Below are positions 848 to 15,832 of a stretch of DNA of 64,000 bases, piece by piece. Origin of the DNA: a virus (Duplodnaviria > Heunggongvirae > Uroviricota > Caudoviricetes). The stretch covers positions 37,644 through 101,643 of IMG/VR virus record IMGVR_UViG_3300036944_000513. One strand, given 5' to 3'. The notes beneath the pieces were generated by a model. The model had not been told where the DNA came from. It saw only the letters and a list, made by a program, of their open reading frames with translations, and searched no databases. Numbering within the stretch: the first letter of the stretch is position 1; each line of letters begins with the position of its first letter. The position numbers and the translations under genes are program-made.

Positions 848-1441
848 ATGATTAAAACTGACCCTATAGCATACTCCGCATACCCACAGGATTGCCACCT
901 GTATAATAAACTAGCACTGTCACGCATCCTTGGCTATACATGTGGCACAGGACATATTCCTTATAGCGGAACATGGATTGTACGCCCAATAATCAATCTA
1001 GATGGAATGGGACTTGGTGCTGTTATAAAACACTATGAGTATGGTGAAAGTATACCAGAAGGAATGTTCTACAGTGAAGTCTTTAAAGGTAGACATATCA
1101 CGATAGACTATGAGAGAAAAGGCAATGTATGGAAACAAACAGATACATTTGAAGGATTCAATACGCCAGATAATCTAATCCAGTTTAGTCACTGGAAGCG
1201 CGTAGAATTCCCATACCATTTGCCGCTGCTATTACGCTCAGTAGAAGCAAAGCATATCAACATAGAAATTATAGATGGAAATATAATTGAAGTGCATCTA
1301 CGTAGAAATCCAGATCCAGTAATGTATGATGAATTTTGGCCCATCTGGTTAGAAGATCAGAAGCCATTTGATGGATATAAGAGAATCGTAGACGTAGAAG
1401 ATCACATTGGGAGACTTGGATTCTACGTGCCAGCTTCTTAG
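848..1441 (+). CDS. ATP-grasp-like protein (putative)
   Basis: 197 aa; the motif IVRPIINLDGMGLG resembles the ATP-grasp KPxxGSxGxGV loop and IIEVHLRRNP resembles the ATP-grasp E-x-N motif. It is the only plus-strand gene in the region and lies immediately upstream of the iteron array. Confidence 0.45.
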   Translation: MIKTDPIAYSAYPQDCHLYNKLALSRILGYTCGTGHIPYSGTWIVRPIINLDGMGLGAVIKHYEYGESIPEGMFYSEVFKGRHITIDYERKGNVWKQTDTFEGFNTPDNLIQFSHWKRVEFPYHLPLLLRSVEAKHINIEIIDGNIIEVHLRRNPDPVMYDEFWPIWLEDQKPFDGYKRIVDVEDHIGRLGFYVPAS

Positions 1442-1522
1442 AATTACTATGGTATTGGAGAGAAATTTACTATGGTATAGCAGAAAAGGGTGATGGGGAT
1501 AGACTTAGAAGCACCATAGGAT

Positions 1523-1600
1523 GGGCGTAGAGAAGGCGTAGAAGAGCCGCAGTATAGACGTAGAATTGACGTAGAATTGACGTAGAAGGTTTAGAAGTAT
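1523..1600. repeat. iteron-like array: seven 11-bp-periodic copies of (A/G)CGTAGAA
   Basis: gcgtagagaag gcgtagaagag ccgcagtatag acgtagaattg acgtagaattg acgtagaaggt ttagaagtata, in a 250-bp non-coding stretch. Confidence 0.7.
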
Positions 1601-1808
1601 AAAGGTTAAAAGATGTTAAAAATAGGGTGGCACTAAACCCGCCAAAAACGACCCCACCCCGAAATTTCAAAAATGCAGGAGGGTTGTCTTTTTGGCAACT
1701 ATTACCACAATAAAAACCCCACGACCTGTGGGGCTTCTACGTCTCTTTTTTACAACAAAATATATATTTTTTTCTGTTGTATTTTCACCACAGTTCTACG
1801 TTGTATTT

Positions 1809-2048
1809 TTACAACATAGCCTTGAGTTCAGCCTTAACGCGCCGCGCAGTCTCCCCACGGTACGTCCCAGCGTTACCCAGAAAATACGACACCACGGAGC
1901 GCCCAGAATCAAGGCCGTAGGCGTCACTGATGGACTCTAGCCCCATCATGGCATCAAGGTAGGGCTTGGCACTGTAGTGTACCTTAGCGCCCCAATCACG
2001 GCGAATCTCACGGGCAATCGTAGAAATGGTTCGGGAAATGGTTTGCAT
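1809..2048 (-). CDS. hypothetical protein (GC-rich)
   Basis: 79-aa ORF with ATG and an AGGAAC SD; local GC is clearly above the window average. Confidence 0.45.
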   Translation of the reverse strand: MQTISRTISTIAREIRRDWGAKVHYSAKPYLDAMMGLESISDAYGLDSGRSVVSYFLGNAGTYRGETARRVKAELKAML

Positions 2049-2087
2049 TTTATCGTTCCTAATATGGTTGTGAATATGGATTATCGT

Positions 2088-2396
2088 TTAGGCGCGAACA
2101 GTTTGCATATTGATAACTGAATTAAATTCGTTCATGAATGGTGTGTCATCAGTGGCCGACACTGTTTCATCATTCTCGCAGCCGAATGGTATAACCAAAG
2201 CCAACCCCACAGTTTTGCCCGCTGCGTCACGTATGGTCAATCCAGCTTCTTCTACGCTCTCAATGGCTTCAATGATGGCCTTGTAGTCGCTGCTACGCTT
2301 TGCGGCGTAGGCTTCGCCGTCATACACAGAAATGGTGAAATTACGCTCCAGAGCCATGTTGACCAGAGTGATGTAGGATTTTGGGAAGAATTTCAT
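2088..2396 (-). CDS. hypothetical protein (GC-rich)
   Basis: In-frame ATG at 2396 preceded by a PeSL-variant leader; 103 aa. Confidence 0.45.
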   Translation of the reverse strand: MKFFPKSYITLVNMALERNFTISVYDGEAYAAKRSSDYKAIIEAIESVEEAGLTIRDAAGKTVGLALVIPFGCENDETVSATDDTPFMNEFNSVINMQTVRA

Positions 2397-2475
2397 TTTG
2401 TAGTCCTTAGTGAGTAGAAGTCTAGTATAAGCGAAAAGCGATTCTTTGTGTAAATTATTTTGCAGTGTGTTGTAT

Positions 2476-2694
2476 TTACGCAACACACTCAGTGCGACGA
2501 TCAATATACCCTGCACCCTTACGAATCTCAGCAGCCCAGTCGCTGTTAAAAACAATGTCGCGGATTACAACCGAGTAGCCAGCAATTTTATGGTTGCAAT
2601 ATGCGTCAAATGCTTGATCGTAAGTATCAAATTCCATGATGCCGTTTTCAAGGGTTTCAACGCAGGCATAAGAGAGAAAGTAGTTGCAGATCAT
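2476..2694 (-). CDS. hypothetical protein
   Basis: 72-aa ORF with an ATG start downstream of a PeSL-variant cassette. Confidence 0.4.
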   Translation of the reverse strand: MICNYFLSYACVETLENGIMEFDTYDQAFDAYCNHKIAGYSVVIRDIVFNSDWAAEIRKGAGYIDRRTECVA

Positions 2695-2792
2695 TTTAGA
2701 GTTCCTTGTTGGTAGGACTCTAGTATATCAAAAAACAGCCCTTCTACGTAGAAATTTACAAATATATTTGCACTGTTGTTTCTACGTCACAC

Positions 2793-2996
2793 TCAAAAAT
2801 ATTCATTGACATTTGCCGAACGATCCCGTAACTTCTCAGCCTGCTTGATTCTACGTTTAAGCGCATCAATCTCAAAGTCAATACGTTTGTCTTTTTGGCG
2901 AATCTCATCACGTTGGTCAATGAGTGCATTCAGTTCGTCGTACAGTTCTTCAATGTTTTTCATAATGTTAATCGTTGTCAAGGTTGATAAGGTCAT
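2793..2996 (-). CDS. hypothetical coiled-coil protein
   Basis: 67 aa with charged heptad-like sequence. Confidence 0.35.
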   Translation of the reverse strand: MTLSTLTTINIMKNIEELYDELNALIDQRDEIRQKDKRIDFEIDALKRRIKQAEKLRDRSANVNEYF

Positions 2997-3348
2997 CTTT
3001 TGGTTCTACGTATGCAACAGGCTGATTCCACAGCAATTGCACAATGTTATCAGAATGTATACTATTTTGCGTACAGAAATCAATGGCAAGTTGTCTACGT
3101 ATAAACAAATGGGGAACAAAGTCACCCTGATGATTCCTAACAGTATAACCAGCAAATTTAATCATAGTATAAAACGTAGAAACCCATGGAATAATCCAGT
3201 GATAAAACCAGTGAATGCCACAAGTATAATTAGATCAGTGAATGACATAGTTACCATAAGTATAATATTAGAGTTTCTCATTATCGCCCACATGGCGATT
3301 ATTACATAGAGTCAATAGAATGTCAATAGAATCTTTGTAGTGTTGTAT

Positions 3349-3558
3349 TTACGCAACAGAGTCAATTTCGTATACTTCTTCGTCCTCGCAGCCAATCCAC
3401 GTAGAATTAATTGAAGGCCCACCAAAGCCGTGAACGTACTCAGTGGTGACATTGTATTCAGATTCGCCAGTACCAGCGAGTTCCATTGCTTCATGCTTAG
3501 AATCAGCTTCGACTTCGATTTCTACGACGAAATACTGACGAACAATATAAGTAGCCAT
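3349..3558 (-). CDS. hypothetical protein, MATY(I/Y)V...VEVEA(D/E)SK family
   Basis: In-frame ATG at 3558 (MATYIVRQYF...); paralogous to 9755..9946; preceded by a PeSL-variant leader. Confidence 0.5.
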   Translation of the reverse strand: MATYIVRQYFVVEIEVEADSKHEAMELAGTGESEYNVTTEYVHGFGGPSINSTWIGCEDEEVYEIDSVA

Positions 3559-3827
3559 TTTGATATCCTTTGTTGGTAGAATTACAGTATAACACAAAAG
3601 TCAATATTCAGCGTTGTTTTCGCGCAACATTTACGTAGAATAACCTGTCAAGCATTTCGTGGTATAAAAGAGACACATTGACGTAGAATCTTATATAAGT
3701 AATGGCTTATTCAATTGTTTAGTTAAATAGTTAAATAGTTTAATAAGCAAAGACTTATACTTCAAAAACGCCTTATTTATACTACTAAATTCTAGGCCCA
3801 TTTGCACAATTTACCACTTTCACCCAC

Positions 3828-4115
3828 TTATTCTACGTTATTGCCCCGAGTTTTCTTTTTACGAATATTTTCATATAATTTCCATAGTATCGCCCATAAT
3901 GGTAATTGCTTTTCTTTTTCTACGTAGTATTTTCCCTCAATGCCGCATGGATTCTGTGGTATTCTATACCCAAAAACATTTTCCCTATGGTCTGAGCACT
4001 TATAATATACTTTATTACCATTAACCGGATTAGAATACATTGCAGTATACTTGCATATTTCAGTACCGCCACTCATGGAATAATAATACTTACAGTTTAT
4101 ACAGAATTTGCTCAT
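3828..4115 (-). CDS. hypothetical Cys-rich protein
   Basis: 95 aa with multiple CxxC pairs; ATGA stop/start overlap with the upstream gene. Confidence 0.45.
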   Translation of the reverse strand: MSKFCINCKYYYSMSGGTEICKYTAMYSNPVNGNKVYYKCSDHRENVFGYRIPQNPCGIEGKYYVEKEKQLPLWAILWKLYENIRKKKTRGNNVE

Positions 4116-4714
4116 TTTATTCCCTTATAAAATACGTGTGCCCCAGCCGTTGCTACTAATGCGGTTTTATCCCCCCATTTTGGTTGCACGTATGTTGCAT
4201 GATAATGTAGTATTTTAGTTGATGCCAATGGTTCTACGCGCATACCTTCACGCATCATGCCTGTTGCAATGGTCATATAATAGTCTTGCTGCTTTGCTGA
4301 CCAATTGACCACTTTCTTTTCCAGTGTCCAAGAGAATTGTGCCTTAGCAAACACCACTTTGCACATGCTAGAACCCCAATTCCCGGCCTTTAAACGGTTG
4401 ATGTGTACCTGACCCACTGCATACTGGTCTTGGGGCTTCTGGTTGCCTGCTTCCCTGAATATAGAGTATGCCAGACACTTTACATCTTTATTTGTTTGTC
4501 CCTTGATTGGAGTATATCCGGGCTGTATATCATCATCAGTTATACTATGCAGTTTAGCTTTAACTGGTTTTTGTACCGGCTTTTTAAACATTGCATCTAA
4601 TTTGGCTGTGATATCTTTTGATAATGCAAATTCTTTTGCGGTTTCTGTCCACATAGCATTTGCTGTTGTGCATACTAATGCAGATAATAATACTGTTAAT
4701 TTAATAGTTATCAT
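4112..4714 (-). CDS. secreted SleB/CwlJ-like cell-wall hydrolase
   Basis: N-terminal signal peptide (MITIKLTVLLSALVCTTANA); motifs CLAYSIFREAG and GQVHINR are typical of the SleB (Hydrolase_2) family. Confidence 0.6.
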   Translation of the reverse strand: MITIKLTVLLSALVCTTANAMWTETAKEFALSKDITAKLDAMFKKPVQKPVKAKLHSITDDDIQPGYTPIKGQTNKDVKCLAYSIFREAGNQKPQDQYAVGQVHINRLKAGNWGSSMCKVVFAKAQFSWTLEKKVVNWSAKQQDYYMTIATGMMREGMRVEPLASTKILHYHATYVQPKWGDKTALVATAGAHVFYKGIK

Positions 4715-4952
4715 GGTTTTTTACCGCTTTATCCATATCATCATAGATTCGGTCATAATCTTCTTGAGTTATCTTTTTTTCTAACCACTTCGCTGGCTTT
4801 CCCTTTGTGGTCAGCACTTCAAAAGTATTATCATTGATATAGTCGCCGAATGAAGTAATCTCAATGATGCAGGGAATTCCTTGGATTTTAGAATCAAACG
4901 GTATCATTTGGTTATACTTTGAAAAACGATTTAATCTGATCTGATGCGGCAT
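4701..4952 (-). CDS. hypothetical protein
   Basis: 83-aa ORF. Confidence 0.4.
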   Translation of the reverse strand: MPHQIRLNRFSKYNQMIPFDSKIQGIPCIIEITSFGDYINDNTFEVLTTKGKPAKWLEKKITQEDYDRIYDDMDKAVKNHDNY

Positions 4953-5166
4953 TTAATACTGCACTATCGCCGCCTTCTACATCTTCCAAATTAGTATTGC
5001 GGACAATAGACGCGCATTGGGCAATGATTAACTCAGCGAATTTCTGAATTTGCTCTAATTGCGCTTGTTCTGTTTGAGTTAACGCATTAACCGTGCCATA
5101 GTGGTTCAGCGCGATGACTGACCCAAATTTGGCTTGTAGAGCAAGTTGTTTGATTTGCTGGTTCAT
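4912..5166 (-). CDS. MNxRIKELAEQAG / FAELIVKEC / FGVEE family small protein (paralog)
   Basis: In-frame ATG at 5166 directly after the PeSL leader ...CACTTCAAG-ATG; sequence MNQQIKQLALQAKFG...KFAELIIAQCA...SFFKV. Confidence 0.55.
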   Translation of the reverse strand: MNQQIKQLALQAKFGSVIALNHYGTVNALTQTEQAQLEQIQKFAELIIAQCASIVRNTNLEDVEGGDSAVLNAASDQIKSFFKV

Positions 5167-5257
5167 CTTGAAGTGTCTTTTCGTTGCGATAACTGATTGT
5201 AACCGATTTTCTGGGTGAAACACCAAAATATTTTTTAGTGTCTCTTTTTTACAACAG
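5167..5257 (-). promoter_or_regulatory. PeSL-like early promoter cassette
   Basis: Conserved TTGTTGCGATAACTGATTGTAACCGAT (plus strand; equals -10 TACAAT plus leader on the minus strand) and a TGTTGTAAAAAAGAGACAC box at the upstream stop codon. Confidence 0.6.
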
Positions 5258-5482
5258 TTATACTCCGAAAAACTCTTTGATTTTGTTTTGTACCTGAGTT
5301 GCTGCCGCATACGTCAATTCCGAATCTTCATCACGCAATACGTCCCTGACGCATTCAGTGGCGTGATTTATAATTAACTCAGCGAATTTATTACTGTCAA
5401 AGCCTGATGTAAGTAATTCACCGTTGATGCCGTGAATTTCAATCTGACATTGGTCAGCGAGTTCTTGGATTCTATTTTGCAT
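5258..5482 (-). CDS. MNxRIKELAEQAG / FAELIVKEC / FGVEE family small protein (paralog)
   Basis: MQNRIQELADQCQ...KFAELIINHATEC...EFFGV. Confidence 0.55.
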   Translation of the reverse strand: MQNRIQELADQCQIEIHGINGELLTSGFDSNKFAELIINHATECVRDVLRDEDSELTYAAATQVQNKIKEFFGV

Positions 5483-5483
5483 A

Positions 5484-5927
5484 TTAGTCCACGTAGAATT
5501 TAAATACTGCCAGAATGCGTGTGCCCGCTTTCATGCGTCCGGTATCAACTAATTGACCATTTTCGACTACCGTAGCATGACCGCGCACAATCACGATAAA
5601 CTTACCAAAAGGATTAGCTTCCATGAACGATTTGATGGTCATACTTTTGTCATGGAATACACCGCTGATTTTGCGATACTTTGCCCAAATCACAGTTTTT
5701 GCGCCGTAGAATTCGGTGCTGATTGCGCCGTTACGCTTATAGCATTCGATCACGTTTTCTATGGTCATACCGCGATTTTTGGTGCGGTATTTCATGGTAG
5801 CTTTGTGCGCTTCTGGGTACTCGATTTCCAGAGCATTTGCCAATGCACGAACTGTGCAGTCACGGGTTTCGCTGATGCCGTGAGAGGAAGGATTTTCACC
5901 GCGAGAGACTGGAGCAATGTAGGCCAT
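5484..5927 (-). CDS. hypothetical protein (GC-rich island)
   Basis: 147 aa; start directly after a PeSL cassette. Confidence 0.5.
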   Translation of the reverse strand: MAYIAPVSRGENPSSHGISETRDCTVRALANALEIEYPEAHKATMKYRTKNRGMTIENVIECYKRNGAISTEFYGAKTVIWAKYRKISGVFHDKSMTIKSFMEANPFGKFIVIVRGHATVVENGQLVDTGRMKAGTRILAVFKFYVD

Positions 5928-6019
5928 AATTCAGTACCGTTTTTTGTTGCGATAAGGTATTGTAACCGATTTTCGGGGTCTTTTTACAGTTTCCCCGAAA
6001 ATATTTCTAACCGTTGTTT
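5928..6019 (-). promoter_or_regulatory. PeSL-like early promoter cassette
   Basis: Box GTTGCTTAAAAACAAC overlaps the upstream stop codon; a 10-bp-stem hairpin ATTTTCGGGG/CCCCGAAAAT carries TGTAAAAA in its loop; -10 TACAAT; leader TTATCGCAACAAAAAAC. Confidence 0.65.
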
Positions 6020-6850
6020 TTAAGCAACTTCTGCAACTTCCACTTGCTTTTTGTACGATAAGCGAGTAATGATGGTCTGATTCACGCCATCATAGACATT
6101 GTGTTCTTTAACGCTGAATGAAGCGGTCTCAAATGCCTCATACGCGGGTTCGCCGTTAGTGGTGTACCAAGTCAACACATTGCCCTCTGCGGTCTCCAAT
6201 TTGACCACATAGCGCGTCAGAAAGGGGTAGAAATCAGTCTTACCAATTGCAAAGCAGGCGGTCACGCGAACCTGAGCATCTTTAACACGTTTGCCAATTT
6301 GACCAACGTGTTTGCTGTTGGCGCGTTGGGCTTCGATGCGCTCAGTGGCTGCAAAGCTGGACGCTACGGCGCTGGCGTGGCGGTCAGTCAATCGCCCCCA
6401 CAATGCCAAGCTGGCTTGCGAATCGAGCAAGAACTGATTGATGCCATTGTATGCGCGTAAACGCGCCACTAATGCCGCATTCCCATTGCGCCATTGCTCG
6501 GTGGCTTCCAAGCGAGTGTGCAGGCGCTCAAGGCGTTCTGCTGCCACTTTTGCAGCGCGTTGCTCACGGCGTACAACTGCACCAGCTTCGCGGCGGGATT
6601 TGATGTTGGCTTTGCGAACCGTATCAAAATCTTCAATCATTCCCGTTTTTTCTACGCAGTCGCAGCCAACATGAAAATGTGCGCCATCAGTGGATTTGAT
6701 TTGATACGCCCAGCGAATTCCAGTACCGCAATACTGACAAGCGCCACCGGCCTTAGATTCACCACCGGGCATAGTGAACACCATTTCTTCTACGCCAATG
6801 CACCGAAAAGGTGCTTTACCGAGACCAGCTTTTTCAAAGGGGTGTGTCAT
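6020..6850 (-). CDS. hypothetical Cys/His-rich (zinc-binding?) protein (GC-rich island)
   Basis: 276 aa with CQYCGTG...HFHVGCDC and an Arg/Ala-rich coiled middle; elevated GC. Confidence 0.5.
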   Translation of the reverse strand: MTHPFEKAGLGKAPFRCIGVEEMVFTMPGGESKAGGACQYCGTGIRWAYQIKSTDGAHFHVGCDCVEKTGMIEDFDTVRKANIKSRREAGAVVRREQRAAKVAAERLERLHTRLEATEQWRNGNAALVARLRAYNGINQFLLDSQASLALWGRLTDRHASAVASSFAATERIEAQRANSKHVGQIGKRVKDAQVRVTACFAIGKTDFYPFLTRYVVKLETAEGNVLTWYTTNGEPAYEAFETASFSVKEHNVYDGVNQTIITRLSYKKQVEVAEVA

Positions 6851-6924
6851 AATGTCAGTACCAATTTTGTTGCGATAAAGAATTGTAACCGATAAATCAG
6901 AGTAAAAGTGCAGTTGTAGTAAAT
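6851..6924 (-). promoter_or_regulatory. PeSL-like early promoter cassette
   Basis: AATTTTGTTGCGATAAAGAATTGTAACCGATAAATCAGAG...AAATTTACAACAA. Confidence 0.6.
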
Positions 6925-7227
6925 TTACAACAATTCTGCTGGAATATCAACTTCTTCGCCCAGCTTGGACGCTACGTAGCAGCGCATTGCTGCAATCAGG
7001 GGTGTGGGGCCGTCCTCTTGATACAGCGGTGTGTCAAGGTCTGTCGAGTCTTGCGTTGTAGCTGTCCAGCAGTCGTGCTTGGGGTGCGTCAGCACAATGA
7101 TCTCCCTTTCAATGATCGGGCCGCCGTGTGACCAATTGGTGGAGGGACTGAAATAGCCCCAAACATTCGCTTCGATCTTTGCCACCGCCCAGTCAAGGGC
7201 AATGTCTGTTAGTTCTGATGTTTTCAT
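6925..7227 (-). CDS. hypothetical protein (GC-rich island)
   Basis: 100-aa ORF. Confidence 0.5.
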   Translation of the reverse strand: MKTSELTDIALDWAVAKIEANVWGYFSPSTNWSHGGPIIEREIIVLTHPKHDCWTATTQDSTDLDTPLYQEDGPTPLIAAMRCYVASKLGEEVDIPAELL

Positions 7228-7328
7228 AATGTCAGTACCAATTTTGTTGCGATAACTGATTGTAAGCGATTTCCGAGACTTTTTTAACTTTTTTACAGAA
7301 ATATTTTTTCTGTTGTTTTTTTGCTACT
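7228..7328 (-). promoter_or_regulatory. PeSL-like early promoter cassette
   Basis: The same conserved core is present, with a G in place of C in the TTGTAACCGAT element (TTGTAAGCGAT). Confidence 0.6.
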
Positions 7329-7637
7329 TTAGAAATTGTAGTCGTAGAATCGGCGTGGAGCATCAGCAAGACCGAATTTGCGACCATTGGCGTCTTTCCA
7401 AGTACCAGCTTTATTCAAACGAATACGAACAACCGGATTATTTTCATTTTGGGAAATAACCCACTTTTGCTCATTCTGATTAGTACAATGACCAGCAAAG
7501 CCGCCAACAACCCAATTCAATTCTACGCTTGCGTCTTTTTCGGCGTCCATTTCACGCACTTCAACGCATTTGTCGCTGATCTTGCGAACTACTTCGTAAG
7601 GATAAACATCAGAGTAACCGTATTGATTTGCGTACAT
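7329..7637 (-). CDS. hypothetical protein
   Basis: 102-aa ORF; leader ...ACTTCAAA-ATG. Confidence 0.5.
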   Translation of the reverse strand: MYANQYGYSDVYPYEVVRKISDKCVEVREMDAEKDASVELNWVVGGFAGHCTNQNEQKWVISQNENNPVVRIRLNKAGTWKDANGRKFGLADAPRRFYDYNF

Positions 7638-7740
7638 TTTGAAGTCCAGTTTTGTTGCGATAACTGATTCTAGTTGATTTTCAACTCTTTTTTACAAAAA
7701 AATAAAAAATAATTTATTCTGTTGTATTTTTACAACAACC
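7638..7740 (-). promoter_or_regulatory. PeSL-like early promoter cassette
   Basis: TTGAAGTCCAGTTTTGTTGCGATAACTGATTCTAGTTGA...TGTTGTATTTTTACAACAA. Confidence 0.6.
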
Positions 7741-7850
7741 ATAAAAAAACACACTGTAAGAATTGCACCCCCCAAGTTCCTACGCTTGGTTACGTCTAGG
7801 GGTTACAGACCGATTCGGCAGTCCTGCAAGAAATGTGTTTTTGTATGTAA

Positions 7851-7883
7851 AGACCCCACGCCATGCAGGGTCTTTGTTTTTGT
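7851..7883. terminator. hairpin terminator (GC stem agaccc/gggtct plus T-run)
   Basis: agaccccacgccatgcagggtct followed by ttgtttttgtg, just downstream of the end of 7885..8151. Confidence 0.4.
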
Positions 7884-7884
7884 G

Positions 7885-8151
7885 TTATACAATCACTGCG
7901 AGTTGATTTTCCATTGCTACCGAAATGATAGCATCACGATCAATTGCGCGATAGCCTTTTTTGGTCATGTCGTAAACGATAACGAATTTGTCAGCGTCCA
8001 ATGTAGACTGACCACCACGCAAATCTTTTGTCACACCAGTGCGGCAATTCATTTTGCGAATGCTACCGTCTTTTTTAACGAAATTCACTGTGAGAAATTT
8101 GCCCTTAGAGTTAGCAATTGCGGATGCGAGAGAGCGGGATACTGCGTTCAT
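7885..8151 (-). CDS. hypothetical protein
   Basis: 88-aa ORF; PeSL leader upstream. Confidence 0.5.
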   Translation of the reverse strand: MNAVSRSLASAIANSKGKFLTVNFVKKDGSIRKMNCRTGVTKDLRGGQSTLDADKFVIVYDMTKKGYRAIDRDAIISVAMENQLAVIV

Positions 8152-8242
8152 TTTGAAGTCCTGTTTTGTTGTCGATAAGTAATTATAAGCGATTTCGGGG
8201 TCTTTTTACCGATTTCCCGAAAATAAATTTCTTTTGTTGTTT
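8152..8242 (-). promoter_or_regulatory. PeSL-like early promoter cassette
   Basis: TTGAAGTCCTGTTTTGTTGTCGATAAGTAATTATAAGCGAT...TTGTTGTTTTTAAGCAAC. Confidence 0.6.
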
Positions 8243-8440
8243 TTAAGCAACAGTCTCTTTGATAGTCACTTCTACGTCTTGTTTCAGTGCGCGAATCATG
8301 CAGTCCATTGCCACTCTGCCCGGAATTGCGTCGAGTTTACGATCAAATTGTCCGCTGTTAAGTTTGAGTTCGTCCACAATTCCAAATAAAATAGTCATTG
8401 CTTTGTGGGCTTCGATCAAGTCAAGTGAAGAAATTTTCAT
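8243..8440 (-). CDS. hypothetical protein
   Basis: In-frame ATG placed after the stop of the upstream gene; the longer track ORF overlaps 8451..8633. Confidence 0.3.
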   Translation of the reverse strand: MKISSLDLIEAHKAMTILFGIVDELKLNSGQFDRKLDAIPGRVAMDCMIRALKQDVEVTIKETVA

Positions 8441-8450
8441 TTTAGTCCAA

Positions 8451-8633
8451 TCAGCAAACTTGATGCAGTTTTTGGACTTCATCAAAATAAAAATCATACA
8501 GTTTAATGGCACTGCCCCAAACTGCCAGCTTCTTCGAATCATATTCGAATTGGTTGTTCCAAGTTTCCTCGTCATCCCACGTTGTGAGATCAACAACCTT
8601 GCCTTCGCGTAGATAGATGATGTAGTATTTCAT
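8451..8633 (-). CDS. hypothetical protein
   Basis: Canonical PeSL leader GGACTTCAAA-ATG at 8633; 60 aa. Confidence 0.5.
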   Translation of the reverse strand: MKYYIIYLREGKVVDLTTWDDEETWNNQFEYDSKKLAVWGSAIKLYDFYFDEVQKLHQVC

Positions 8634-8723
8634 TTTGAAGTCCTGTTTTGCCGTCGATAAGTAATTATAAGCGATTTTCAGGGAATTTTTAGAGTTCCCC
8701 GAAAATAAATTTAACTGTTGTTT
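8634..8723 (-). promoter_or_regulatory. PeSL-like early promoter cassette
   Basis: Conserved core plus hairpin CAGGGAA/TTCCCCG. Confidence 0.6.
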
Positions 8724-8987
8724 TTATGCAACTTCGTACATATAATTTTTAACGCTTGGGTCAAGTGCGATCAATTCTTTTACTGCGCCCATCAAAGCCT
8801 TATAATTCGCATTCACTTGGCTTGCAGACAATTCGCCGTCACAAGTGAGATTCTCAGGGCTCAAATCTGAATCAAGAGATTGTGCAATAGATTTGCGATC
8901 ATCCGCATTTTGAATACTAAGTTGCTTGGAACCAACCAATTTGGCAAATGCGTTCTTGCGGTCTACGTAGGCGGTGAGTTTAGACAT
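8724..8987 (-). CDS. hypothetical protein
   Basis: 87-aa ORF. Confidence 0.5.
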   Translation of the reverse strand: MSKLTAYVDRKNAFAKLVGSKQLSIQNADDRKSIAQSLDSDLSPENLTCDGELSASQVNANYKALMGAVKELIALDPSVKNYMYEVA

Positions 8988-9078
8988 TTTGCGAATCCGT
9001 TTTTTGTTGCGATAATGTATTCTAGTTGATTTTCAGGGAATTTTTACAGTTCCCCGAAAATAAATATTTCTGTTGTTT
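8988..9078 (-). promoter_or_regulatory. PeSL-like early promoter cassette
   Basis: Conserved core plus hairpin. Confidence 0.6.
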
Positions 9079-9486
9079 TTACGCCACAAGTTCGTATGGC
9101 TTGTCCCATTTGCCAATGTTTACGCCAACATACCAACCCACATCAAAGTAATCAGATTGAATGTCAGAACGATTATGATTGCCAACATTCATTGCTTGCA
9201 ATACTTCATTCAAAAACGCCACAGCTTCGCCATCAAACTGCTCATGATACCAGTAAGGATTAACGCCGATATATTTTATATCTTTATTATTGTGATAATT
9301 ATACTCAGGACGCTTTGATGTGACATTGACAAAGCTATTGATAAAGTCAATACTTCCAGCTTTGACATTCAATTGCAAGCTAGAATGATTGTCGATTGAC
9401 AACGTAGCCTTCACGCCGTACTTGGCGCAAATTGGCTTGATGACTGCTGCAATTTGCTTCTTTTTGATTTGGTCAATGTATGCCAT
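9079..9486 (-). CDS. hypothetical protein
   Basis: 135-aa ORF. Confidence 0.5.
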   Translation of the reverse strand: MAYIDQIKKKQIAAVIKPICAKYGVKATLSIDNHSSLQLNVKAGSIDFINSFVNVTSKRPEYNYHNNKDIKYIGVNPYWYHEQFDGEAVAFLNEVLQAMNVGNHNRSDIQSDYFDVGWYVGVNIGKWDKPYELVA

Positions 9487-9572
9487 TTTAAAGTTCCAGT
9501 TTTTGTTGCGATAAAGAATTATAACCGATAAATCAGAATAAAAACGCCATTGTGGCGAAAATACAACAAATC
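9487..9572 (-). promoter_or_regulatory. PeSL-like cassette with terminator hairpin followed by a TATAAT -10
   Basis: Minus-strand reading: GCCACAATGGC hairpin, then TTTTTATT, then GGTTATAAT, then leader TTATCGCAACAAAAACTGGAACTTTAAA-ATG. Confidence 0.6.
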
Positions 9573-9754
9573 TGTTTATGCGTCAAAAGTGTGGTAGCGT
9601 TTCTGTGTGTCATTGACCAAACGCTCATGTTCTGCTTTTTCCAATGATGATTTCAATTGTTTGAACAATTCCCGATTGAAGTAACTCATTTCTGCCAAAA
9701 AAGTATCCATTTCTTTTTTTGACAAGTTATTCAATTTGCGAATGATTTCTTCCA

Positions 9755-9946
9755 TTAGATTACATCCATATTAGAATTGACAACGATTGGGTCATCATAC
9801 TCATTGAGTTCCATTTGTGCGCCTGAATCACTATCATCAACGAAATCATATTCAATATCAAGAGCTTTATCAATTGCTTCTGCTTTTGATTCTGCTTCCA
9901 CTTCAACCCAAACCGTATAGGTGCGACCCACATAATATGTTGCCAT
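9755..9946 (-). CDS. hypothetical protein, MATY family paralog
   Basis: In-frame ATG (MATYYVGRTYTVWVEVEAESKAEA); paralog of 3349..3558. Confidence 0.45.
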   Translation of the reverse strand: MATYYVGRTYTVWVEVEAESKAEAIDKALDIEYDFVDDSDSGAQMELNEYDDPIVVNSNMDVI

Positions 9947-9965
9947 TTTTATATCTTTCAGTAAA

Positions 9966-10160
9966 TTAGCAAACTTCGCACATATCAATGGAAACTTCTT
10001 CCATGATATAACCTTTGGCAATGATTCTAGCGTCTGCTATGCTATCAGCGCAGCCAATCCAAGTAGTACCCCTAGCATCAGAATAAATCTCATACACCCA
10101 TGCAACATCATCATAGCTGCAATAGATTTGATAACCATCTAAATCAAGTAGTAAGAACAT
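9966..10160 (-). CDS. hypothetical protein
   Basis: 64 aa; PeSL leader upstream; shares a TWIGC motif with 3349..3558. Confidence 0.45.
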   Translation of the reverse strand: MFLLLDLDGYQIYCSYDDVAWVYEIYSDARGTTWIGCADSIADARIIAKGYIMEEVSIDMCEVC

Positions 10161-10234
10161 TTTGAAGTTCCAGTTTTTGTTGCGATAAGCTATTGTAACC
10201 GATAAATCAGGGTAAAAACGCTACTGTGGTAAAT
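10161..10234 (-). promoter_or_regulatory. PeSL-like early promoter cassette
   Basis: Conserved core. Confidence 0.6.
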
Positions 10235-10423
10235 TTACAACACCGTCAGAATTACTTCATCATTCAATTCAAATGGGCAATCCATTTCAGTTTGGAAAGC
10301 ATTGCCACCAGTTATAAAGATTGCTGTGGTATCGCCCGTCTTTTCAAAGTATTCACCAGAAAAGGGGTCAAAGAAAGTGTCACCCGTATTGAGTGTTTGG
10401 AATTGGGTCAGTGTATCGGTCAT
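10235..10423 (-). CDS. hypothetical protein
   Basis: In-frame ATG with an AGGGGG SD, placed after the stop of 10434..10688. Confidence 0.45.
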   Translation of the reverse strand: MTDTLTQFQTLNTGDTFFDPFSGEYFEKTGDTTAIFITGGNAFQTEMDCPFELNDEVILTVL

Positions 10424-10433
10424 GTGTTCCCCC

Positions 10434-10688
10434 TTAAATTTTGATGCCCGAATAGCTGAATACACGGCGCATTTCTGCGACTGTTTCGGCTTGCGCAATA
10501 CTTCCCAAAAGAGAATTCATATATCCGGTCATGTAGGCAAATTTATCTGATGGCTGACTTGTTGGGTGTGCTGCATCATACTCTTGCATTTTAGCTGCAA
10601 TGGCAGCGTTAACAATTTCACGGCGCTTTTGGGCGCGATCAATGGATTTGTTCAGTTTGTCATTGGTGGAGAATGCTGCTTTGGACAT
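10434..10688 (-). CDS. hypothetical protein
   Basis: 84-aa ORF after a PeSL cassette. Confidence 0.5.
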   Translation of the reverse strand: MSKAAFSTNDKLNKSIDRAQKRREIVNAAIAAKMQEYDAAHPTSQPSDKFAYMTGYMNSLLGSIAQAETVAEMRRVFSYSGIKI

Positions 10689-10792
10689 TTTAAACTTTCG
10701 TTTTTTGTTGCGATAACTGATTGTAACCGACTTCCAATGCTTTTTTCCAAAAAAACTAAAAATAACTTTCTTTGTTGTTTTTATGCAACAAG
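10689..10792 (-). promoter_or_regulatory. PeSL-like early promoter cassette
   Basis: Conserved core. Confidence 0.6.
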
Positions 10793-11134
10793 TTACGCAA
10801 AATTATAGTAAGCGAATTTTGTATTAACTACTTGCCCAATACCTTCAACGATTCGATTATAAACTTCCTTTTTGCTCATGTAATAAGCATAATCAGAATC
10901 AGATGGATTAAAATTCTGCCATTGATTATATCGTTGATTTTGGAGAATATCACGCACAAGTGAATGAGTATCGTAATAATCAATGAAACCATTAAGGTTA
11001 TAGTGAGCAATAAACCCACTTGCCAAATTGATAAATTTGTAACCCGTAGAATTCAGTTTTGTAATATCCTGCACAGCCTTGAGGACATTTGACACAATAA
11101 GGTCTTGCTGGCGCTGAGAGAGAGGTTCAATCAT
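10793..11134 (-). CDS. hypothetical protein
   Basis: 113-aa ORF. Confidence 0.5.
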   Translation of the reverse strand: MIEPLSQRQQDLIVSNVLKAVQDITKLNSTGYKFINLASGFIAHYNLNGFIDYYDTHSLVRDILQNQRYNQWQNFNPSDSDYAYYMSKKEVYNRIVEGIGQVVNTKFAYYNFA

Positions 11135-11219
11135 GATAAAGATTCCGTTTTGTTGTCGATAAAGTATTGTAACCGACTCTCAGCACTTTTTGTAAAAAAT
11201 CTTCTACGCTGTTGTTTTT
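11135..11219 (-). promoter_or_regulatory. PeSL-like early promoter cassette
   Basis: Conserved core (TTGTTGTCGATAAAGTATTGTAACCGAC). Confidence 0.6.
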
Positions 11220-11495
11220 TTACAACTGCACAGCAGCGTAATAATCGGCCAATGCTGCGTCCATACCAATGCCTTCTTCCCCTTCCCATACCCACACGAT
11301 ATCGGCGTCAGGTTCGGCGTTTAAACACTGTTCTTCGGCGTGATCTACATCTTCCGCCCAGCACTGAAACCCAAATGGAGAATCAGTTGCACACATAATG
11401 GATTCAATACGAAAGAGTACGATATAATTTTGCATTTGATTTTCCTGTTGCAGTTGATCTTGTTTGAATTGACGTTTTGAATTAAATCCGGTCAT
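11220..11495 (-). CDS. hypothetical acidic protein
   Basis: 91-aa ORF. Confidence 0.45.
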   Translation of the reverse strand: MTGFNSKRQFKQDQLQQENQMQNYIVLFRIESIMCATDSPFGFQCWAEDVDHAEEQCLNAEPDADIVWVWEGEEGIGMDAALADYYAAVQL

Positions 11496-11645
11496 TTACT
11501 TTTTTCCAATCTACTCATTGCAGTTTGTAATTGCTGCTCATACTTTTCAAGGTTTTCACCTAGTTGCAATATTGCACTCTGAGTTTCTTCGATGCACATT
11601 TTCCAATGTGCAATCTCTGCGTTTAGAATATCTGCGTCCATTATA

Positions 11646-12086
11646 TCACCAAGACGCCTGATACTCAAAATCGAATCCTTTGAGCAATGGATTATTAATT
11701 AGCGCAGTCAATTCATTTTTGGTGCGCTCCAATTCTTCAAAATAATAATCATCATACTCAGTTGAACCAAAAAAGAATCCTGAGCCAGTTGGTAGAATTT
11801 CTTCTGCTTTGCCTCGGTTTTCCAATACAGTTGCAATATCATTAATCAATTGCTCAATATTTTCTTGACTAACATTATATGGCGCACAATTATCTTCACC
11901 ATCTTGAACATTTTCCACAAACCAATTATGGATTGCGTTTGCCTTGCGCCAGTACATAGCGCGGACACTAATTTCTTTTACATCAAGTCCACCAAAAATT
12001 TCGCATACTGCTACGCGCTTTTCTGCGACTGCATCATCATATTCAGACAAATATTTCTTTGCGGTCAAGTACATATCCAAACCCAT
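11646..12086 (-). CDS. hypothetical protein
   Basis: 146-aa ORF. Confidence 0.5.
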   Translation of the reverse strand: MGLDMYLTAKKYLSEYDDAVAEKRVAVCEIFGGLDVKEISVRAMYWRKANAIHNWFVENVQDGEDNCAPYNVSQENIEQLINDIATVLENRGKAEEILPTGSGFFFGSTEYDDYYFEELERTKNELTALINNPLLKGFDFEYQASW

Positions 12087-12110
12087 AATATTCTCCTAGT
12101 TAAAATAAAA

Positions 12111-12377
12111 TTATACTGCTTTGTAGCTGTTATAGCTACGAATTTTGCTGCTTTTGTTGCTAGATTTCTCAACAAATTTTACACCAATGTTTCGCGTAGT
12201 CAACTCACGCGCCAACAATCCCAAATCACAATCTTCTTCCAAGTATACATGATTTTTGCGCTCATAACTGTAACGGCTGATTTTATTTGCAATGCCAAGA
12301 AAATCAATCACGCTGCGTTCAACTTTGCCCCATGCGTGGGCTGGGTCTTGGTATACTGTGATGGTCAAATTTTTCAT
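12111..12377 (-). CDS. hypothetical protein
   Basis: 88 aa; PeSL leader ACTTAAAA-ATG. Confidence 0.5.
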   Translation of the reverse strand: MKNLTITVYQDPAHAWGKVERSVIDFLGIANKISRYSYERKNHVYLEEDCDLGLLARELTTRNIGVKFVEKSSNKSSKIRSYNSYKAV

Positions 12378-12445
12378 TTTTAAGTCCAGTTTTTGTTGCG
12401 ATAACGTATTGTAACCGACTTCCGAAACTTTTTGTAGAAAATCTT
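12378..12445 (-). promoter_or_regulatory. PeSL-like early promoter cassette
   Basis: Conserved core. Confidence 0.6.
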
Positions 12446-12787
12446 TTAATCGTTGTTTTTACGCAACGCCACACGCTCTTTGAGTTCTTCGAGTTCAATT
12501 TCCAGCGCAGCATTTAGCATTTCGACAAATATTTTCAATTCCGTTTTTTTCATACATGCAACAACAACTTCCCCCATCATATCGGTGACTTTAATAGCAA
12601 CGCCATAATTTTCTTTTGTCCATGACGCTTCGATAATGCCATCACCCTCGGAATCTGTGATATAAACCCTTCGCTGAGTATTATCAGAATAATCTTCATC
12701 AATTTCATCTGTCATATCACAATATGATGTAAATCCCATTTCATCAGTAATAATCAATGGTGAAATCATTTCAATTAATTTTCTCAT
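12446..12787 (-). CDS. hypothetical protein
   Basis: 113 aa; ATGA overlap with the upstream family gene. Confidence 0.5.
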   Translation of the reverse strand: MRKLIEMISPLIITDEMGFTSYCDMTDEIDEDYSDNTQRRVYITDSEGDGIIEASWTKENYGVAIKVTDMMGEVVVACMKKTELKIFVEMLNAALEIELEELKERVALRKNND

Positions 12788-12993: not shown

Positions 12994-13002
12994 GCGCTTC
13001 CC

Positions 13003-13233: not shown

Positions 13234-13234
13234 A

Positions 13235-13417: not shown

Positions 13418-13488
13418 CCTTTGTTGCTATGAAAGTATTGTAACCGATTTTTAGACTTTGTGCGCGTTTGTTGCGAATTTACAACAAC
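13418..13488 (-). promoter_or_regulatory. PeSL-like early promoter cassette (degenerate)
   Basis: GAAAGTATTGTAACCGATTTTTAG...GAATTTACAACAA. Confidence 0.5.
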
Positions 13489-14309: not shown

Positions 14310-14310
14310 A

Positions 14311-15812: not shown

Positions 15813-15832
15813 GCGTAGGGGCATTACAAACA

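What the first reader, a model, noticed from the sequence alone, without database searches (positions are those of the whole stretch)
1200..4300. 11-bp-periodic iteron array and about 20-fold over-representation of the palindrome TTCTACGTAGAA
The non-coding stretch 1523-1600 holds seven consecutive 11-bp units built on (A/G)CGTAGAA, one helical turn each. The half-site TTCTACG/CGTAGAA occurs about 20 more times between 1.2 and 4.3 kb, against roughly one expected. These include two perfect 12-bp palindromes, TTCTACGTAGAA at about 2737 and TTCTACGTAG at about 3919. The motif also appears inside several PeSL-variant boxes and, at lower density, across the whole window. Iterons at helical periodicity beside an AT-rich tract (1600-1700), plus scattered half-sites, match the architecture of a replication origin or partition/centromere-like site. 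Alternatively this is a high-affinity array for a phage transcription regulator. The only plus-strand gene nearby, the ATP-grasp-like ORF 848..1441, ends 80 bp upstream.
Basis: seen in the sequence. Interest (0 to 1): 0.7.

Follow-up and report, generated by a model that had tools for sequence, protein, structure and literature searches.

The report
Selected DNA-word island in T4-like phage
A distant T4-like phage packs an exact 7-base DNA word (CGTAGAA) about 60 times above chance into a 3-kb stretch around an 11-bp tandem array; evolution keeps adding copies, even by changing proteins, so it most likely docks an unidentified DNA-binding protein.

Summary
CGTAGAA/TTCTACG occurs 55 times in the window against about 4.5 expected. 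Twenty-five copies lie in 1200-4300 (about 0.4 expected). A non-coding array at 1524-1600 holds six in-phase 11-bp units.

It is not codon bias. With protein sequences fixed and codons resampled, island genes hold 13 sites against 0.9. The excess decays with distance, from 8.6-fold to 3.1-fold to 2.7-fold. Both orientations are enriched, and one-mismatch variants barely are.

Four related metagenomic phages (78-88% nucleotide identity) keep the island and the array, with site turnover. More distant relatives lack it. The ATP-grasp gene 848..1441 is an insertion beside the array. It then gained four sites, two through amino-acid changes.

Best reading: a strict recognition word for an unidentified double-strand DNA-binding protein. 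The protein would nucleate on the array and occupy a 3-kb hub, including a perfect palindrome over the -35 region of an early promoter.

Origin-specific features are absent: no AT-rich unwinding tract, DnaA boxes, skew switch or initiator gene. No binder was found, so the function remains inferred.

The parts
1524..1600 (+). Tandem array of 11-bp units built on (A/G)CGTAGAA. Six units are in register (4 exact) and a degenerate seventh follows. All are in the same orientation. The array lies in the 367-bp non-coding gap between convergent genes.
   Evidence: (families D10, D12). The same position carries an array in L091, L374, L375 and L376, with different unit numbers.
1201..4238 (.). Site island: 25 exact CGTAGAA/TTCTACG sites (8.1 per kb), 13 on the + strand and 12 on the - strand. 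Thirteen lie inside genes and 12 between genes, by my own gene calls. Site 3175 counts as intergenic there, but it falls in a 43-aa ORF (3162..3293) that those calls omit.
   Evidence: Codon resampling gives 13 sites in island genes against 0.92 expected, with a maximum of 6 in 1000 runs.
2742..2753 (.). Perfect 12-bp palindrome TTCTACGTAGAA. It spans -27..-38 of the promoter of the 72-aa ORF 2476..2694(-).
   Evidence: Conserved in L376. The position relative to the -10 element was read from the sequence.
2722..2730 (-). Extended -10 element TGaTATACT of an early-type promoter. It is one of three copies of a promoter/5'UTR cassette (2394-2437, 2692-2735, 3556-3599).
   Evidence: family D6. 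This is a consensus reading only; no transcript data exist.
1735..1741 (-). Site abutting the bidirectional terminator hairpin 1717-1733. It is invariant in the window, L374, L375 and L376, while the hairpin stem changes by compensatory substitutions.
1794..1800 (-). Site abutting the PeSL-type hairpin GTTGTAttttTACAAC (1800-1815) at the end of the 79-aa ORF. Invariant in all four lineages that cover it.
1296..1307 (.). Near-palindrome aTCTACGTAGAA inside the ATP-grasp ORF. Its exact half-site at 1301 is specific to the window lineage.
3918..3927 (.). TTCTACGTAG: one exact half-site plus a partial mate (8-bp palindrome), inside the 95-aa ORF.
848..1441 (+). ATP-grasp-fold late gene, inserted beside the array in this lineage. 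It carries four derived sites at 1201, 1301, 1393 and 1421.
4239..64000 (.). 27 dispersed exact sites, 26 of them inside genes. They are at 5492, 5705, 6650, 6788, 7343, 7521, 8270, 11045, 11202, 15445, 17037, 17912, 20592, 20778, 21425, 26787, 30491, 30733, 32187, 43014, 46342, 50457, 51104, 51842, 54751, 59995 and 63279. Density falls with distance from the island.

Best explanation
CGTAGAA (ACGTAGAA in the island) is the half-site of a sequence-specific protein that binds double-stranded DNA. The protein was not identified here.

Proposed mechanism:
1. Protomers line up on one face of the helix on the 11-bp array, which acts as the nucleation site.
2. By cooperative contacts and DNA looping, the same protein occupies the 20 or so further sites within about 3 kb. 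These include the palindromic site over the -35 region of an early-type promoter and the two conserved sites next to the terminator hairpins.
3. The resulting nucleoprotein hub sits where late (+) and early (-) transcription converge.
4. Its most likely effect is to time or silence the last early transcription units and to insulate the two converging programmes.
5. The weaker excess of sites elsewhere in the genome feeds or buffers the same protein.

Shown here: the word is exact, strand-independent, under positive and position-dependent selection, and conserved with turnover.

Inferred: that a protein binds it, that binding is cooperative, and what the binding does.
For: Statistics.
- There are 55 sites against 4.45 expected, and it is the top 7-mer both inside and outside the island.

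DNA-level selection.
- With amino-acid sequences fixed, island genes hold 13 sites against 0.92.
- The 4.7-12 kb zone holds 8 against 0.93, 12-33 kb holds 10 against 3.2 (P=0.003), and 33-64 kb holds 8 against 3.0 (P=0.01).
- Outside the island, 17 of 28 GTA-GAA codon pairs are preceded by C, although only 15% of codons end in C.

Recognition of the duplex.
- Sense and antisense orientations are both enriched about 4-fold over codon shuffles.
- In the island 13 sites are on the + strand and 12 on the - strand.
- Palindromic pairs recur: CTACGTAG occurs 5 times in the first 9 kb.

Strictness.
- Density in 1-4300 exceeds the rest of the window 14-fold for exact sites but only about 2-fold for one-mismatch variants.

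Position-dependent gain.
- Homologues of the ATP-grasp gene elsewhere in relatives' genomes have none of its four sites.
- Two sites arose in the common ancestor with L091 and two more in the window lineage.
- The gains include Lys->Val at a position where the five relatives aligned all have Lys, and a Gly->Arg change.
- L375 lacks the gene altogether, with 66 bp in its place, yet keeps the array.

Conservation with turnover.
- L374, L375 and L376 carry 4.7-8.0 sites per kb.
- Sites 1735, 1794, 2742/2747, 2849, 3004 and 3400 are shared. Others are lineage-specific in either direction.
- More distant relatives have none.

Regulatory geometry.
- A perfect palindrome lies at -27..-38 of a TGnTATACT promoter.
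- Five of nine non-array intergenic sites lie within 5 nt of a hairpin.

Internal controls behave differently.
- The promoter word CGGTTACA is intergenic and in one orientation.
- The words CAACTCGG and GGAGTTGA lie in coding sequence in one orientation, from a paralogous protein family.
Against: - No binder was found. No ORF of 80 aa or more in the window has a recognisable sequence-specific DNA-binding domain.
  - The exceptions are homing nucleases and one weak winged-helix hit, below Pfam's cut-off, at 58968..59213, far from the island.
  - The basic 79-aa protein next to the array folds confidently but matches nothing solved.
- Sites have no fixed position relative to promoters. The dispersed sites are not enriched near gene boundaries, which is unusual for a transcription factor.
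- Such strictness (exact word only) is more typical of enzymes or translocase signals than of regulator sites.
- One of the three promoter cassettes of the island (2394-2437) has no site within 100 bp upstream.
- There are no expression, binding or replication data.
Confidence: 0.45

Rival explanations
1. Iteron-type replication origin. An initiator protein binds the phased direct repeats, melts neighbouring DNA and loads the phage helicase. The palindrome at the early promoter is its autoregulatory operator, and the scattered sites titrate it.
For: - Six or seven same-orientation repeats sit at one helical turn in a non-coding gap.
- A direct-repeat array plus an inverted-repeat operator is the logic of plasmid Rep proteins (established knowledge).
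- The array lies at a local switch of transcribed strand, as do T4 oriE, oriF and oriG (PMC3016281).
- The array position is conserved in five lineages.
Against: - There is no AT-rich unwinding element. The stretch 1600-1700 is 58% A+T, and the nearest 60-bp window of at least 80% A+T starts at 3683.
- No DnaA box lies nearby.
- GC skew does not change sign at the array.
- No initiator-like gene is adjacent.
- The gene behind the palindromic promoter is an acidic 72-aa ORF that L375 has replaced.
- Known T4 origins work through promoter-driven R-loops.
- The T4 oriE repeats are a 24/48-nt coding repeat of unproven role.
- An origin does not need 20 extra sites inside neighbouring genes.
Confidence: 0.2
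2. A strict signal read by a DNA translocase or nuclease, similar to Chi. The word would attenuate a host RecBCD/AddAB-type exonuclease or a phage nuclease. It would be concentrated where DNA ends arise, for example at a packaging start or a programmed break near the array.
For: - It is an exact asymmetric 7-mer embedded in coding sequence through synonymous choices. One-mismatch variants are hardly enriched.
- Genome-wide excess with a local peak resembles known architecture-imparting words.
- Left of position 1600 sites are mostly on the + strand (7 of 8). To the right they are mostly on the - strand (11 of 17). That is the orientation expected for protection on both sides of a break.
Against: - The orientation pattern is fully confounded with gene strand. 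Sense to antisense ratios match the codon-shuffle expectation.
- Intergenic sites on the right are in mixed orientation.
- Phasing at 11 bp, palindromes, and a site placed exactly over a -35 region are not expected for a single-strand-read signal.
- No polarity flip is seen across the 68 kb available.
- Known Chi sequences are G-rich (own knowledge).
Confidence: 0.1
3. Hijack or decoy of a host regulator. The 8-bp word plus 3-bp linker in tandem is the geometry bound by OmpR/PhoB-family response regulators (Pho-box-like). The phage would recruit or titrate such a host factor.
For: - The unit is 8 bp + 3 bp repeated at 11 bp.
- Arrays with a conserved CGTAGAA(C) core and variable spacers exist in bacterial genomes. 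In units not forced by the search, core mismatch is 0.18 against 0.34 for spacers.
- No phage-encoded binder was found.
Against: - Control words give as many 11-bp arrays in the viral collection: 1 for the real word against 5 and 1 for controls. The bacterial hits may therefore be background.
- No recurrent neighbouring gene was seen next to those arrays.
- A host regulon box does not explain selection for sites inside phage genes across 60 kb.
- The host is unknown.
Confidence: 0.1
4. Centromere-like or genome-organising site, as in type II parC/ParR, TubR/tubC or ParB/KorB. It would position, condense or package the phage chromosome.
For: - Arrays of 11-bp direct repeats are the hallmark of R1 parC (own knowledge).
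- A dense nucleation zone with decaying secondary sites resembles ParB-type hubs.
Against: - No ParA, ParM, TubZ, ParB or ParR-like gene occurs in the 68 kb examined.
- T4-like phages are lytic with no known need for partition.
- No packaging genes are nearby.
Confidence: 0.08
5. No function: the word spreads by a mutational or recombinational bias, for example short gene-conversion tracts copied from array units or from PeSL cassettes.
For: - Array unit number changes quickly between lineages.
- Some substitutions that create sites are clustered within 10-13 nt.
- Several sites sit next to PeSL-type hairpins, which are known recombination substrates (PMC2839356).
Against: - New sites share only the 7-8-bp word, not longer flanks, with array units.
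- Gains occur by single synonymous changes, such as TTT->TTC at 1421, as well as multi-step ones.
- Sites persist at orthologous positions across lineages at 78-88% identity while neighbouring bases diverge.
- A conserved Lys was replaced to make a site.
Confidence: 0.05

Closest known systems
Plasmid R1 parC / ParR (type II partition centromere and operator)
   Same: Direct repeats of 11 bp, in phase and in one orientation. In R1 they are bound cooperatively by a small dimeric protein to build one large nucleoprotein complex that also regulates a promoter.
   Different: - No parM or parR genes are present, and this is a lytic T4-like phage.
- There are only 6-7 units here, against 10 in parC.
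- Here 20 further sites spread over 3 kb, inside genes and in both orientations, and the word is enriched genome-wide.
Iteron origins with an inverted-repeat operator (pPS10, F, R6K and P1 Rep proteins; P4 alpha with ori/crr octamers)
   Same: The same short word is used as direct repeats in an array and as an inverted pair over a promoter. P4 uses an 8-bp word in both orientations at two loci.
   Different: - No initiator gene, unwinding element or DnaA boxes were found.
- Typical iterons are 17-22 bp at two-turn spacing.
- Extra sites in coding sequence are not a feature of those origins.
Global operator sets of mobile genomes (RK2 KorB OB sites; phage P1 C1 operators)
   Same: An exact word is repeated many times around one genome, singly or as overlapping inverted pairs. 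Some copies lie over promoters and some far from any promoter. All are read by one element-encoded protein.
   Different: - Those sets have 12-20 sites of 13-17 bp, mostly intergenic.
- Here the word is 7-8 bp, with 55 copies in 64 kb.
- Most copies are inside genes, and there is a steep density peak.
Phage T4 oriE 'iterons'
   Same: Evenly spaced direct repeats in a T4-type genome near a switch of transcribed strand. Their role is undefined in the literature (PMC3016281).
   Different: - The T4 repeats have a 24/48-nt period and lie inside gene 5. By my own reading they are probably coding repeats of its C-terminal beta-helix.
- There is no sequence similarity.
- The array here is non-coding, has an 11-bp period, and its word is enriched elsewhere.
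Chi, KOPS and DNA-uptake sequences (strict over-represented genomic words)
   Same: An exact 7-8-mer written into coding sequence by synonymous choice and enriched genome-wide.
   Different: - Those words show strand polarity or uniform spread.
- They are not arranged in helical-phase arrays, palindromes or a 3-kb island.
PeSL cassettes of T4-type phages (promoter-early stem-loops)
   Same: They occur in the same hyperplastic early region. Four or five motif copies sit directly beside PeSL-type hairpins.
   Different: - PeSLs are composites of roughly 50-70 bp, intergenic and in one orientation. In this window their -10 word CGGTTACA behaves that way.
- CGTAGAA is not part of that consensus and lies mostly inside genes.

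Membership tests
Iteron-type replication origin | Three or more direct repeats in one orientation at helical phase | tested here: met
   Six in-phase 11-bp units, four of them exact.
Iteron-type replication origin | Adjacent AT-rich DNA-unwinding element | tested here: not met
   1600-1700 is 58% A+T against a window mean of 63%. 1588-1627 is 72.5% A+T. No 60-bp window of at least 80% A+T lies before position 3683.
Iteron-type replication origin | Initiator (Rep) gene next to the iterons, autoregulated through an inverted repeat | tested here: inconclusive
   An inverted repeat over a promoter exists (2742-2753). The genes behind it have no Rep or DNA-binding signature, and the first of them is replaced in L375.
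Iteron-type replication origin | Host-factor boxes (DnaA) and a compositional skew switch | tested here: not met
   No TTATCCACA-like box within 1 mismatch between positions 400 and 4728. GC skew tracks gene strand only.
Iteron-type replication origin | Origin activity | not testable with these tools
   Needs marker-frequency or nascent-strand mapping.
Type II/III partition centromere (parC, tubC) | Array of 10-12-bp direct repeats | tested here: met
Type II/III partition centromere (parC, tubC) | Adjacent operon for a cytomotive NTPase and a centromere-binding adaptor | tested here: not met
   No such domains in any ORF of 80 aa or more in the window, and none among the Pfam hits precomputed for the genes called on the 4.3-kb left flank.
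T4 MotA-box-type promoter element | Fixed distance to the -10 element and a single orientation with respect to transcription | tested here: not met
   Sites lie at -27..-38, -55, -65 and -103 of different promoters, or are absent. Both orientations occur, and 42 of 55 sites are inside genes.
Chi-like / polar genomic word | Exact word, enriched in coding sequence beyond codon usage | tested here: met
Chi-like / polar genomic word | Orientation bias independent of gene strand | tested here: inconclusive
   Outside the island the sense to antisense count is 18:8, against 5.0:2.0 expected from coding constraints, which is the same ratio. Nearly all genes share one strand, so the test has little power.
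PeSL cassette | Intergenic composite of stem-loop plus early promoter, in one orientation | tested here: not met
   The word is not part of the cassette consensus (families D1-D7). The control word CGGTTACA behaves as a PeSL element, whereas CGTAGAA does not.
Simple codon or oligonucleotide bias | Excess disappears when amino-acid sequence and codon usage are kept, and frequency is uniform along the genome | tested here: not met
   The excess persists in every zone, and density varies 30-fold along the window.

The most novel reading that the evidence does not exclude
This lineage of T4-like phages has a dedicated organiser protein, of a fold that current profiles do not recognise. It reads a strict 7-8-bp word and uses a 3-kb site island with an 11-bp array as a defined replication origin or chromosome-organising centre. 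The rest of the genome is seeded with the same word. T4 biology has no counterpart: its origins share no motif and no sequence-specific initiator is known.
Probability: 0.2. Interest if true: 0.8.

Novelty: new variant of a known kind. Interest (0 to 1): 0.55.

Why it matters
T4-type phages are the best-studied large lytic phages, yet no sequence-specific origin-binding or genome-organising protein is known for them, and T4's own 'iterons' have no proven role.

Here the selection is strong enough to overwrite amino acids for a single DNA word around one locus. That marks a cis-acting centre that could be isolated directly: an 8-bp bait and a 77-bp array are ready for affinity capture.

If the binder is phage-encoded, it would be a new regulator or initiator family in an abundant group of uncultured phages. 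If it is host-encoded, the word could help identify the host.

The pattern itself may be useful for finding similar centres in other phage genomes. It combines three signs: an exact word, both orientations, and an excess that survives codon resampling and decays with distance.

Tried and rejected
- **Nucleotide similarity to GenBank phages.** None found in near or distant mode. The best gp43 match is below 50% identity, to cyanophages.
- **RNA gene in the gap.** No Rfam or tRNA match.
- **Link to the ATP-grasp gene.** Rejected. Its homologues sit elsewhere in relatives without the word, and L375 has the array without the gene.
- **Link to the 79-aa gene next to the array (phrog_13953).**
  - The family is widespread in unrelated phages that carry other words or none.
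  - Its confident 4-helix model matches no solved structure.
- **Relatives found through gp43.** They show no enrichment, but those loci cover only the replication module.
- **Literature search for the word.** The 25 top-ranked of 1,409 papers were listed. One was opened, and its match was an unrelated oligonucleotide containing the archaeal SegB site.
- **Global scans for CGTAGAA-N4 x3.**
  - More than 120 hits appeared in each of the genome and metagenome collections, which at first looked like a widely conserved binding site.
  - In the viral collection, control words give as many arrays.
  - Half of the hits are one repeated element of a few Bacteroidales MAGs.
  - Neighbouring genes are unrelated.
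  - I therefore kept this as a side note, not as evidence.
- **L001.** The only viral hit, a high-GC phage, and unrelated.
- **Binder hunt.** Pfam or PHROGs were run over nearly all ORFs of 80 aa or more. They found only nucleases and one sub-threshold winged helix. ORFs under 80 aa were not all scanned.
- **Enrichment of dispersed sites near gene starts or ends.** Not seen.

Full report
**What the window is.** The 64-kb window comes from a distant T4-like myophage.
- It encodes homologues of gp43 polymerase, gp41 helicase, UvsX, RNA ligases, the gp44/62 clamp loader, the gp45 clamp and RegA.
- It has no nucleotide match among GenBank phages. Its polymerase is under 50% identical to the nearest cyanophage proteins.
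- Almost all genes lie on the minus strand.
- Exact copies of the first few kilobases occur in three metagenome assemblies. One of them (L082) extends 4263 bp beyond the left end of the window.

**Checking the observation: the array.**
- It is as described. Units of 11 bp from 1524 read GGCGTAGAGAA, GGCGTAGAAGA, GCCGCAGTATA, GACGTAGAATT, GACGTAGAATT, GACGTAGAAGG. A degenerate TTTAGAA follows, 2 bp out of register.
- Its score is the joint highest among the tandem repeats reported for the window.

**Checking the observation: the counts.**
- CGTAGAA/TTCTACG occurs 55 times against 4.45 +/- 2.08 in dinucleotide shuffles.
- It is the top-ranked 7-mer both in 1-4500 and in the remaining 59.5 kb.
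- Twenty-five sites lie in 1200-4300, where about 0.4 is expected.
- Only three lie in the 4.3 kb to the left of the window, so the island is bounded on both sides.

- There is one perfect 12-bp palindrome (2742-2753), not two.
- A near-palindrome at 1296-1307 was missed.
- The stretch 1600-1700 is not AT-rich: it is 58% A+T against a window mean of 63%.

**Is it codon bias?** No.
- I called genes with a codon-usage model; the calls agree with those on L082.
- Outside the island, 26 of 27 sites are inside genes. Seventeen are in the frame xxC GTA GAA.
- With every protein sequence fixed and synonymous codons redrawn from the genome's own usage:
  - island genes hold 13 sites against 0.92 expected (maximum 6 in 1000 runs);
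  - 4.7-12 kb holds 8 against 0.93;
  - 12-33 kb holds 10 against 3.2 (P=0.003);
  - 33-64 kb holds 8 against 3.0 (P=0.01).
- Outside the island, 17 of 28 GTA-GAA pairs follow a codon ending in C, although only 15% of codons do.
- The antisense orientation is enriched to the same degree as the sense orientation. The signal is therefore in the DNA duplex, not in the RNA or the protein.
- The word is also strict. Between 1-4300 and the rest of the window, exact sites differ 14-fold in density and one-mismatch variants about 2-fold.
- Island sites prefer a 5' A (ACGTAGAA, 20 of 28). Dispersed sites do not.
- Internal controls behave as expected for their kinds.
  - The PeSL -10 word CGGTTACA is intergenic and in one orientation.
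  - The words CAACTCGG and GGAGTTGA are in-frame pieces of a paralogous protein family.

**Evolution: the flanking gene.**
- Homologues of ORF 848..1441 sit between an RNA ligase gene and a kinase gene in relatives at 74-81% identity. They lie directly behind a TATAAATA late promoter, and the word is not enriched there: 0-2 sites per contig, about as expected.
- The gene has an ATP-grasp fold: pLDDT 94, and a best Foldseek E-value of 7e-6 against ATP-grasp ligases.
- A closer relative, L091 (88% nucleotide identity, same synteny), has the array with five units, one of them exact. It has six sites in 2 kb. All five of its sites in the aligned part are also present in the window.
- A codon alignment shows that all four sites inside the gene are derived.
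  - Two arose before the split from L091. One needed three substitutions. The other needed a single TTT->TTC change.
  - Two are specific to the window lineage. They involve a Gly->Arg change and a Lys->Val change at a position where all five relatives aligned have Lys.

**Evolution: further relatives.**
- Relatives reached through the 79-aa gene add three lineages.
  - L374 has 5 sites in 1.0 kb.
  - L375 has 16 sites in 3.4 kb.
  - L376 has 15 sites in 1.9 kb.
  - The more distant L377 has none.
- All three lineages carry an array at the same place, each with a different arrangement. In L375, CGTAGAA alternates with TTTAGAA every 11 bp.
- L375 lacks the ATP-grasp gene altogether, with 66 bp in its place. 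The gene is therefore an insertion beside a pre-existing array, and it collected sites after arriving.
- Site by site, 1735, 1794, the palindrome 2742/2747, 2849, 3004 and 3400 are shared. Others are gained or lost in either direction.
- The terminator hairpin next to site 1735 changes by compensatory substitutions, while the site itself stays invariant.
- Taken together, this is position-dependent positive selection with turnover. It is the pattern expected when the local density of a binding word matters.

**Anatomy.**
- The array lies in a 367-bp gap where the late plus-strand gene and the early minus-strand genes converge.
- On the minus strand, two terminators (1717-1733 and 1625-1659) precede it.
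- The perfect palindrome covers -27..-38 of a TGaTATACT promoter. This promoter is one of three copies of a promoter/5'UTR cassette (family D6).
- Other sites lie at -55, -65 and -103 of promoters, beside PeSL-type hairpins, or inside every small gene of the island.
- Dispersed sites are not concentrated near gene boundaries.

**What it most likely is.** The evidence fits a strict half-site for a double-strand DNA-binding protein.
- The protein would nucleate on the phased array and, through cooperative contacts, occupy a 3-kb hub.
- I favour a regulatory or insulating role for the terminal early transcription units (confidence 0.45), because a full dimer site sits over a promoter and the island coincides with those units.
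- That a protein binds, and what follows from binding, are inferences.

**Rivals.**
- An iteron origin (0.2) shares the array geometry. It lacks an unwinding element, DnaA boxes, a skew switch and an initiator gene. The T4 oriE precedent turned out to be a 24/48-nt repeat lying inside gene 5, whose role the literature calls undefined.
- A Chi-like signal (0.1) fits the strictness, but not the phasing, the palindromes or the mixed orientation.
- A host response-regulator box (0.1), a centromere-like site (0.08) and a non-functional conversion process (0.05) remain possible.

**The binder.** It was not found.
- Pfam and PHROGs over nearly all ORFs of 80 aa or more gave only homing nucleases and one sub-threshold winged-helix hit at 58968..59213.
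- The 79-aa protein beside the array is a confident four-helix fold without a structural match.
- The binder may be a small ORFan, lie outside the window, or belong to the host.

- Control words are as frequent in the viral collection.
- Half of the hits are one repeated element in a few Bacteroidales genomes.
- Neighbouring genes are unrelated.
- Some arrays there do keep the core better than the spacer (0.18 against 0.34 mismatch). No link to this phage can be shown.

**Verdict.** This is a real, bounded, selected cis-acting centre of a kind known in outline from plasmids and temperate phages. The combination is one I have not seen described for T4-type phages, and a literature search for the word found nothing on it. 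It comprises an exact 7-8-bp word, an 11-bp array, a 3-kb island that overwrites coding sequence, and a graded genome-wide excess. The function is unresolved but directly testable.

Noticed in passing
window 5179-13440 (for example 5942-6006, 7242-7306, 8164-8228, 8647-8711): PeSL-like intergenic cassettes: a stem-loop plus a promoter with the -10 word CGGTTACAAT. The word occurs 10 times, 8 of them intergenic on the minus strand. The island itself uses a different promoter cassette (TGnTATACT, three copies).
   Followed up: partly
window about 12.7-31.7 kb (words CAACTCGGCGA and GGAGTTGA): A family of at least 11 paralogous small proteins sharing ...KFAELIVKEC... and a C-terminal HFGVEE. It accounts for the next most over-represented words of the window.
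   Followed up: partly
window 848-1441 (+); L085, L087, L089, L092, L375: The 197-aa ORF has a minimal ATP-grasp fold (pLDDT 94). In relatives it is driven by a TATAAATA late promoter. It occupies different genomic positions in related phages and is absent from L375, so it behaves as a mobile late gene.
   Followed up: yes
window 1664-1715 and hairpin 1717-1733: A block of about 50 nt between two terminators is nearly identical in four lineages. The neighbouring terminator stem shows compensatory changes (CCCCAC/GTGGGG against CCCTAC/GTAGGG). It could be a small RNA or a DNA element. No Rfam match.
   Followed up: partly
window 1444-1455 and 1467-1478: Direct repeat TTACTATGGTAT x2, 23 bp apart, just upstream of the array and conserved in L091 and L375. 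In L375 the first copy is fused to an exact CGTAGAA where the window has CTTAGAA, so the junction of the ORF insertion lies at a motif copy.
   Followed up: partly
window 702-720 and 3311-3332: Tandem duplications of GTCAATA(C/G)AA(T). Each creates doubled TTGAC -35 elements in front of minus-strand genes.
   Followed up: no
window 3720-3745: TAGTTAAA x3 within the most AT-rich stretch of the island (3683-3769, at least 80% A+T).
   Followed up: no
window 19248-19919 (+), 25698-26642 (+), 36140-36676 (-), 35749-36168 (-), 49121-49723 (-): Free-standing homing-endonuclease-type genes: a NUMOD3-containing ORF whose sequence looks GIY-YIG-like to my eye, an HNH_3 ORF, and a weak GIY-YIG match. 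There is also an endonuclease VII gene. Two of these genes lie on the strand opposite to their neighbours.
   Followed up: partly
window 25236-25691 (-), 17028-17495 (-), 6925-7227 (-): Homologues of the Thoeris inhibitor Tad3 (E=9e-37), a Macro-domain protein and P22 NinX lie in the early region.
   Followed up: no
L107 (IMG/VR 3300020154_000003, a 366-kb contig); L121-L124: Unrelated phages carrying a homologue of the 79-aa gene have their own strict words in both orientations. L107 has CCAGTAC(TGG), 38 copies in 20 kb against 1.1 expected, including perfect 10-bp palindromes. L121-L124 have TGTTTGACTCAAACA, about 31 copies in 20 kb. This may be the same kind of phenomenon.
   Followed up: partly
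L128-L367 (genome contigs and metagenome contigs): A repeated element...attACGTAGAAAAGACGTAGAAAGGACGTAGAAAGaattgg..., is present in dozens of copies in a few Bacteroidales MAGs. Arrays CGTAGAACGnn with a conserved core and variable spacers, often with inverted copies upstream, occur in high-GC soil bacteria. No common neighbouring gene was seen.
   Followed up: partly
L001 3600-3800: An intergenic region of a high-GC viral contig holds several different short tandem triplets side by side: GGAAACCCCAT, GAAATCACCT and CACGTAGAAAC. It looks like a multi-iteron control region.
   Followed up: no
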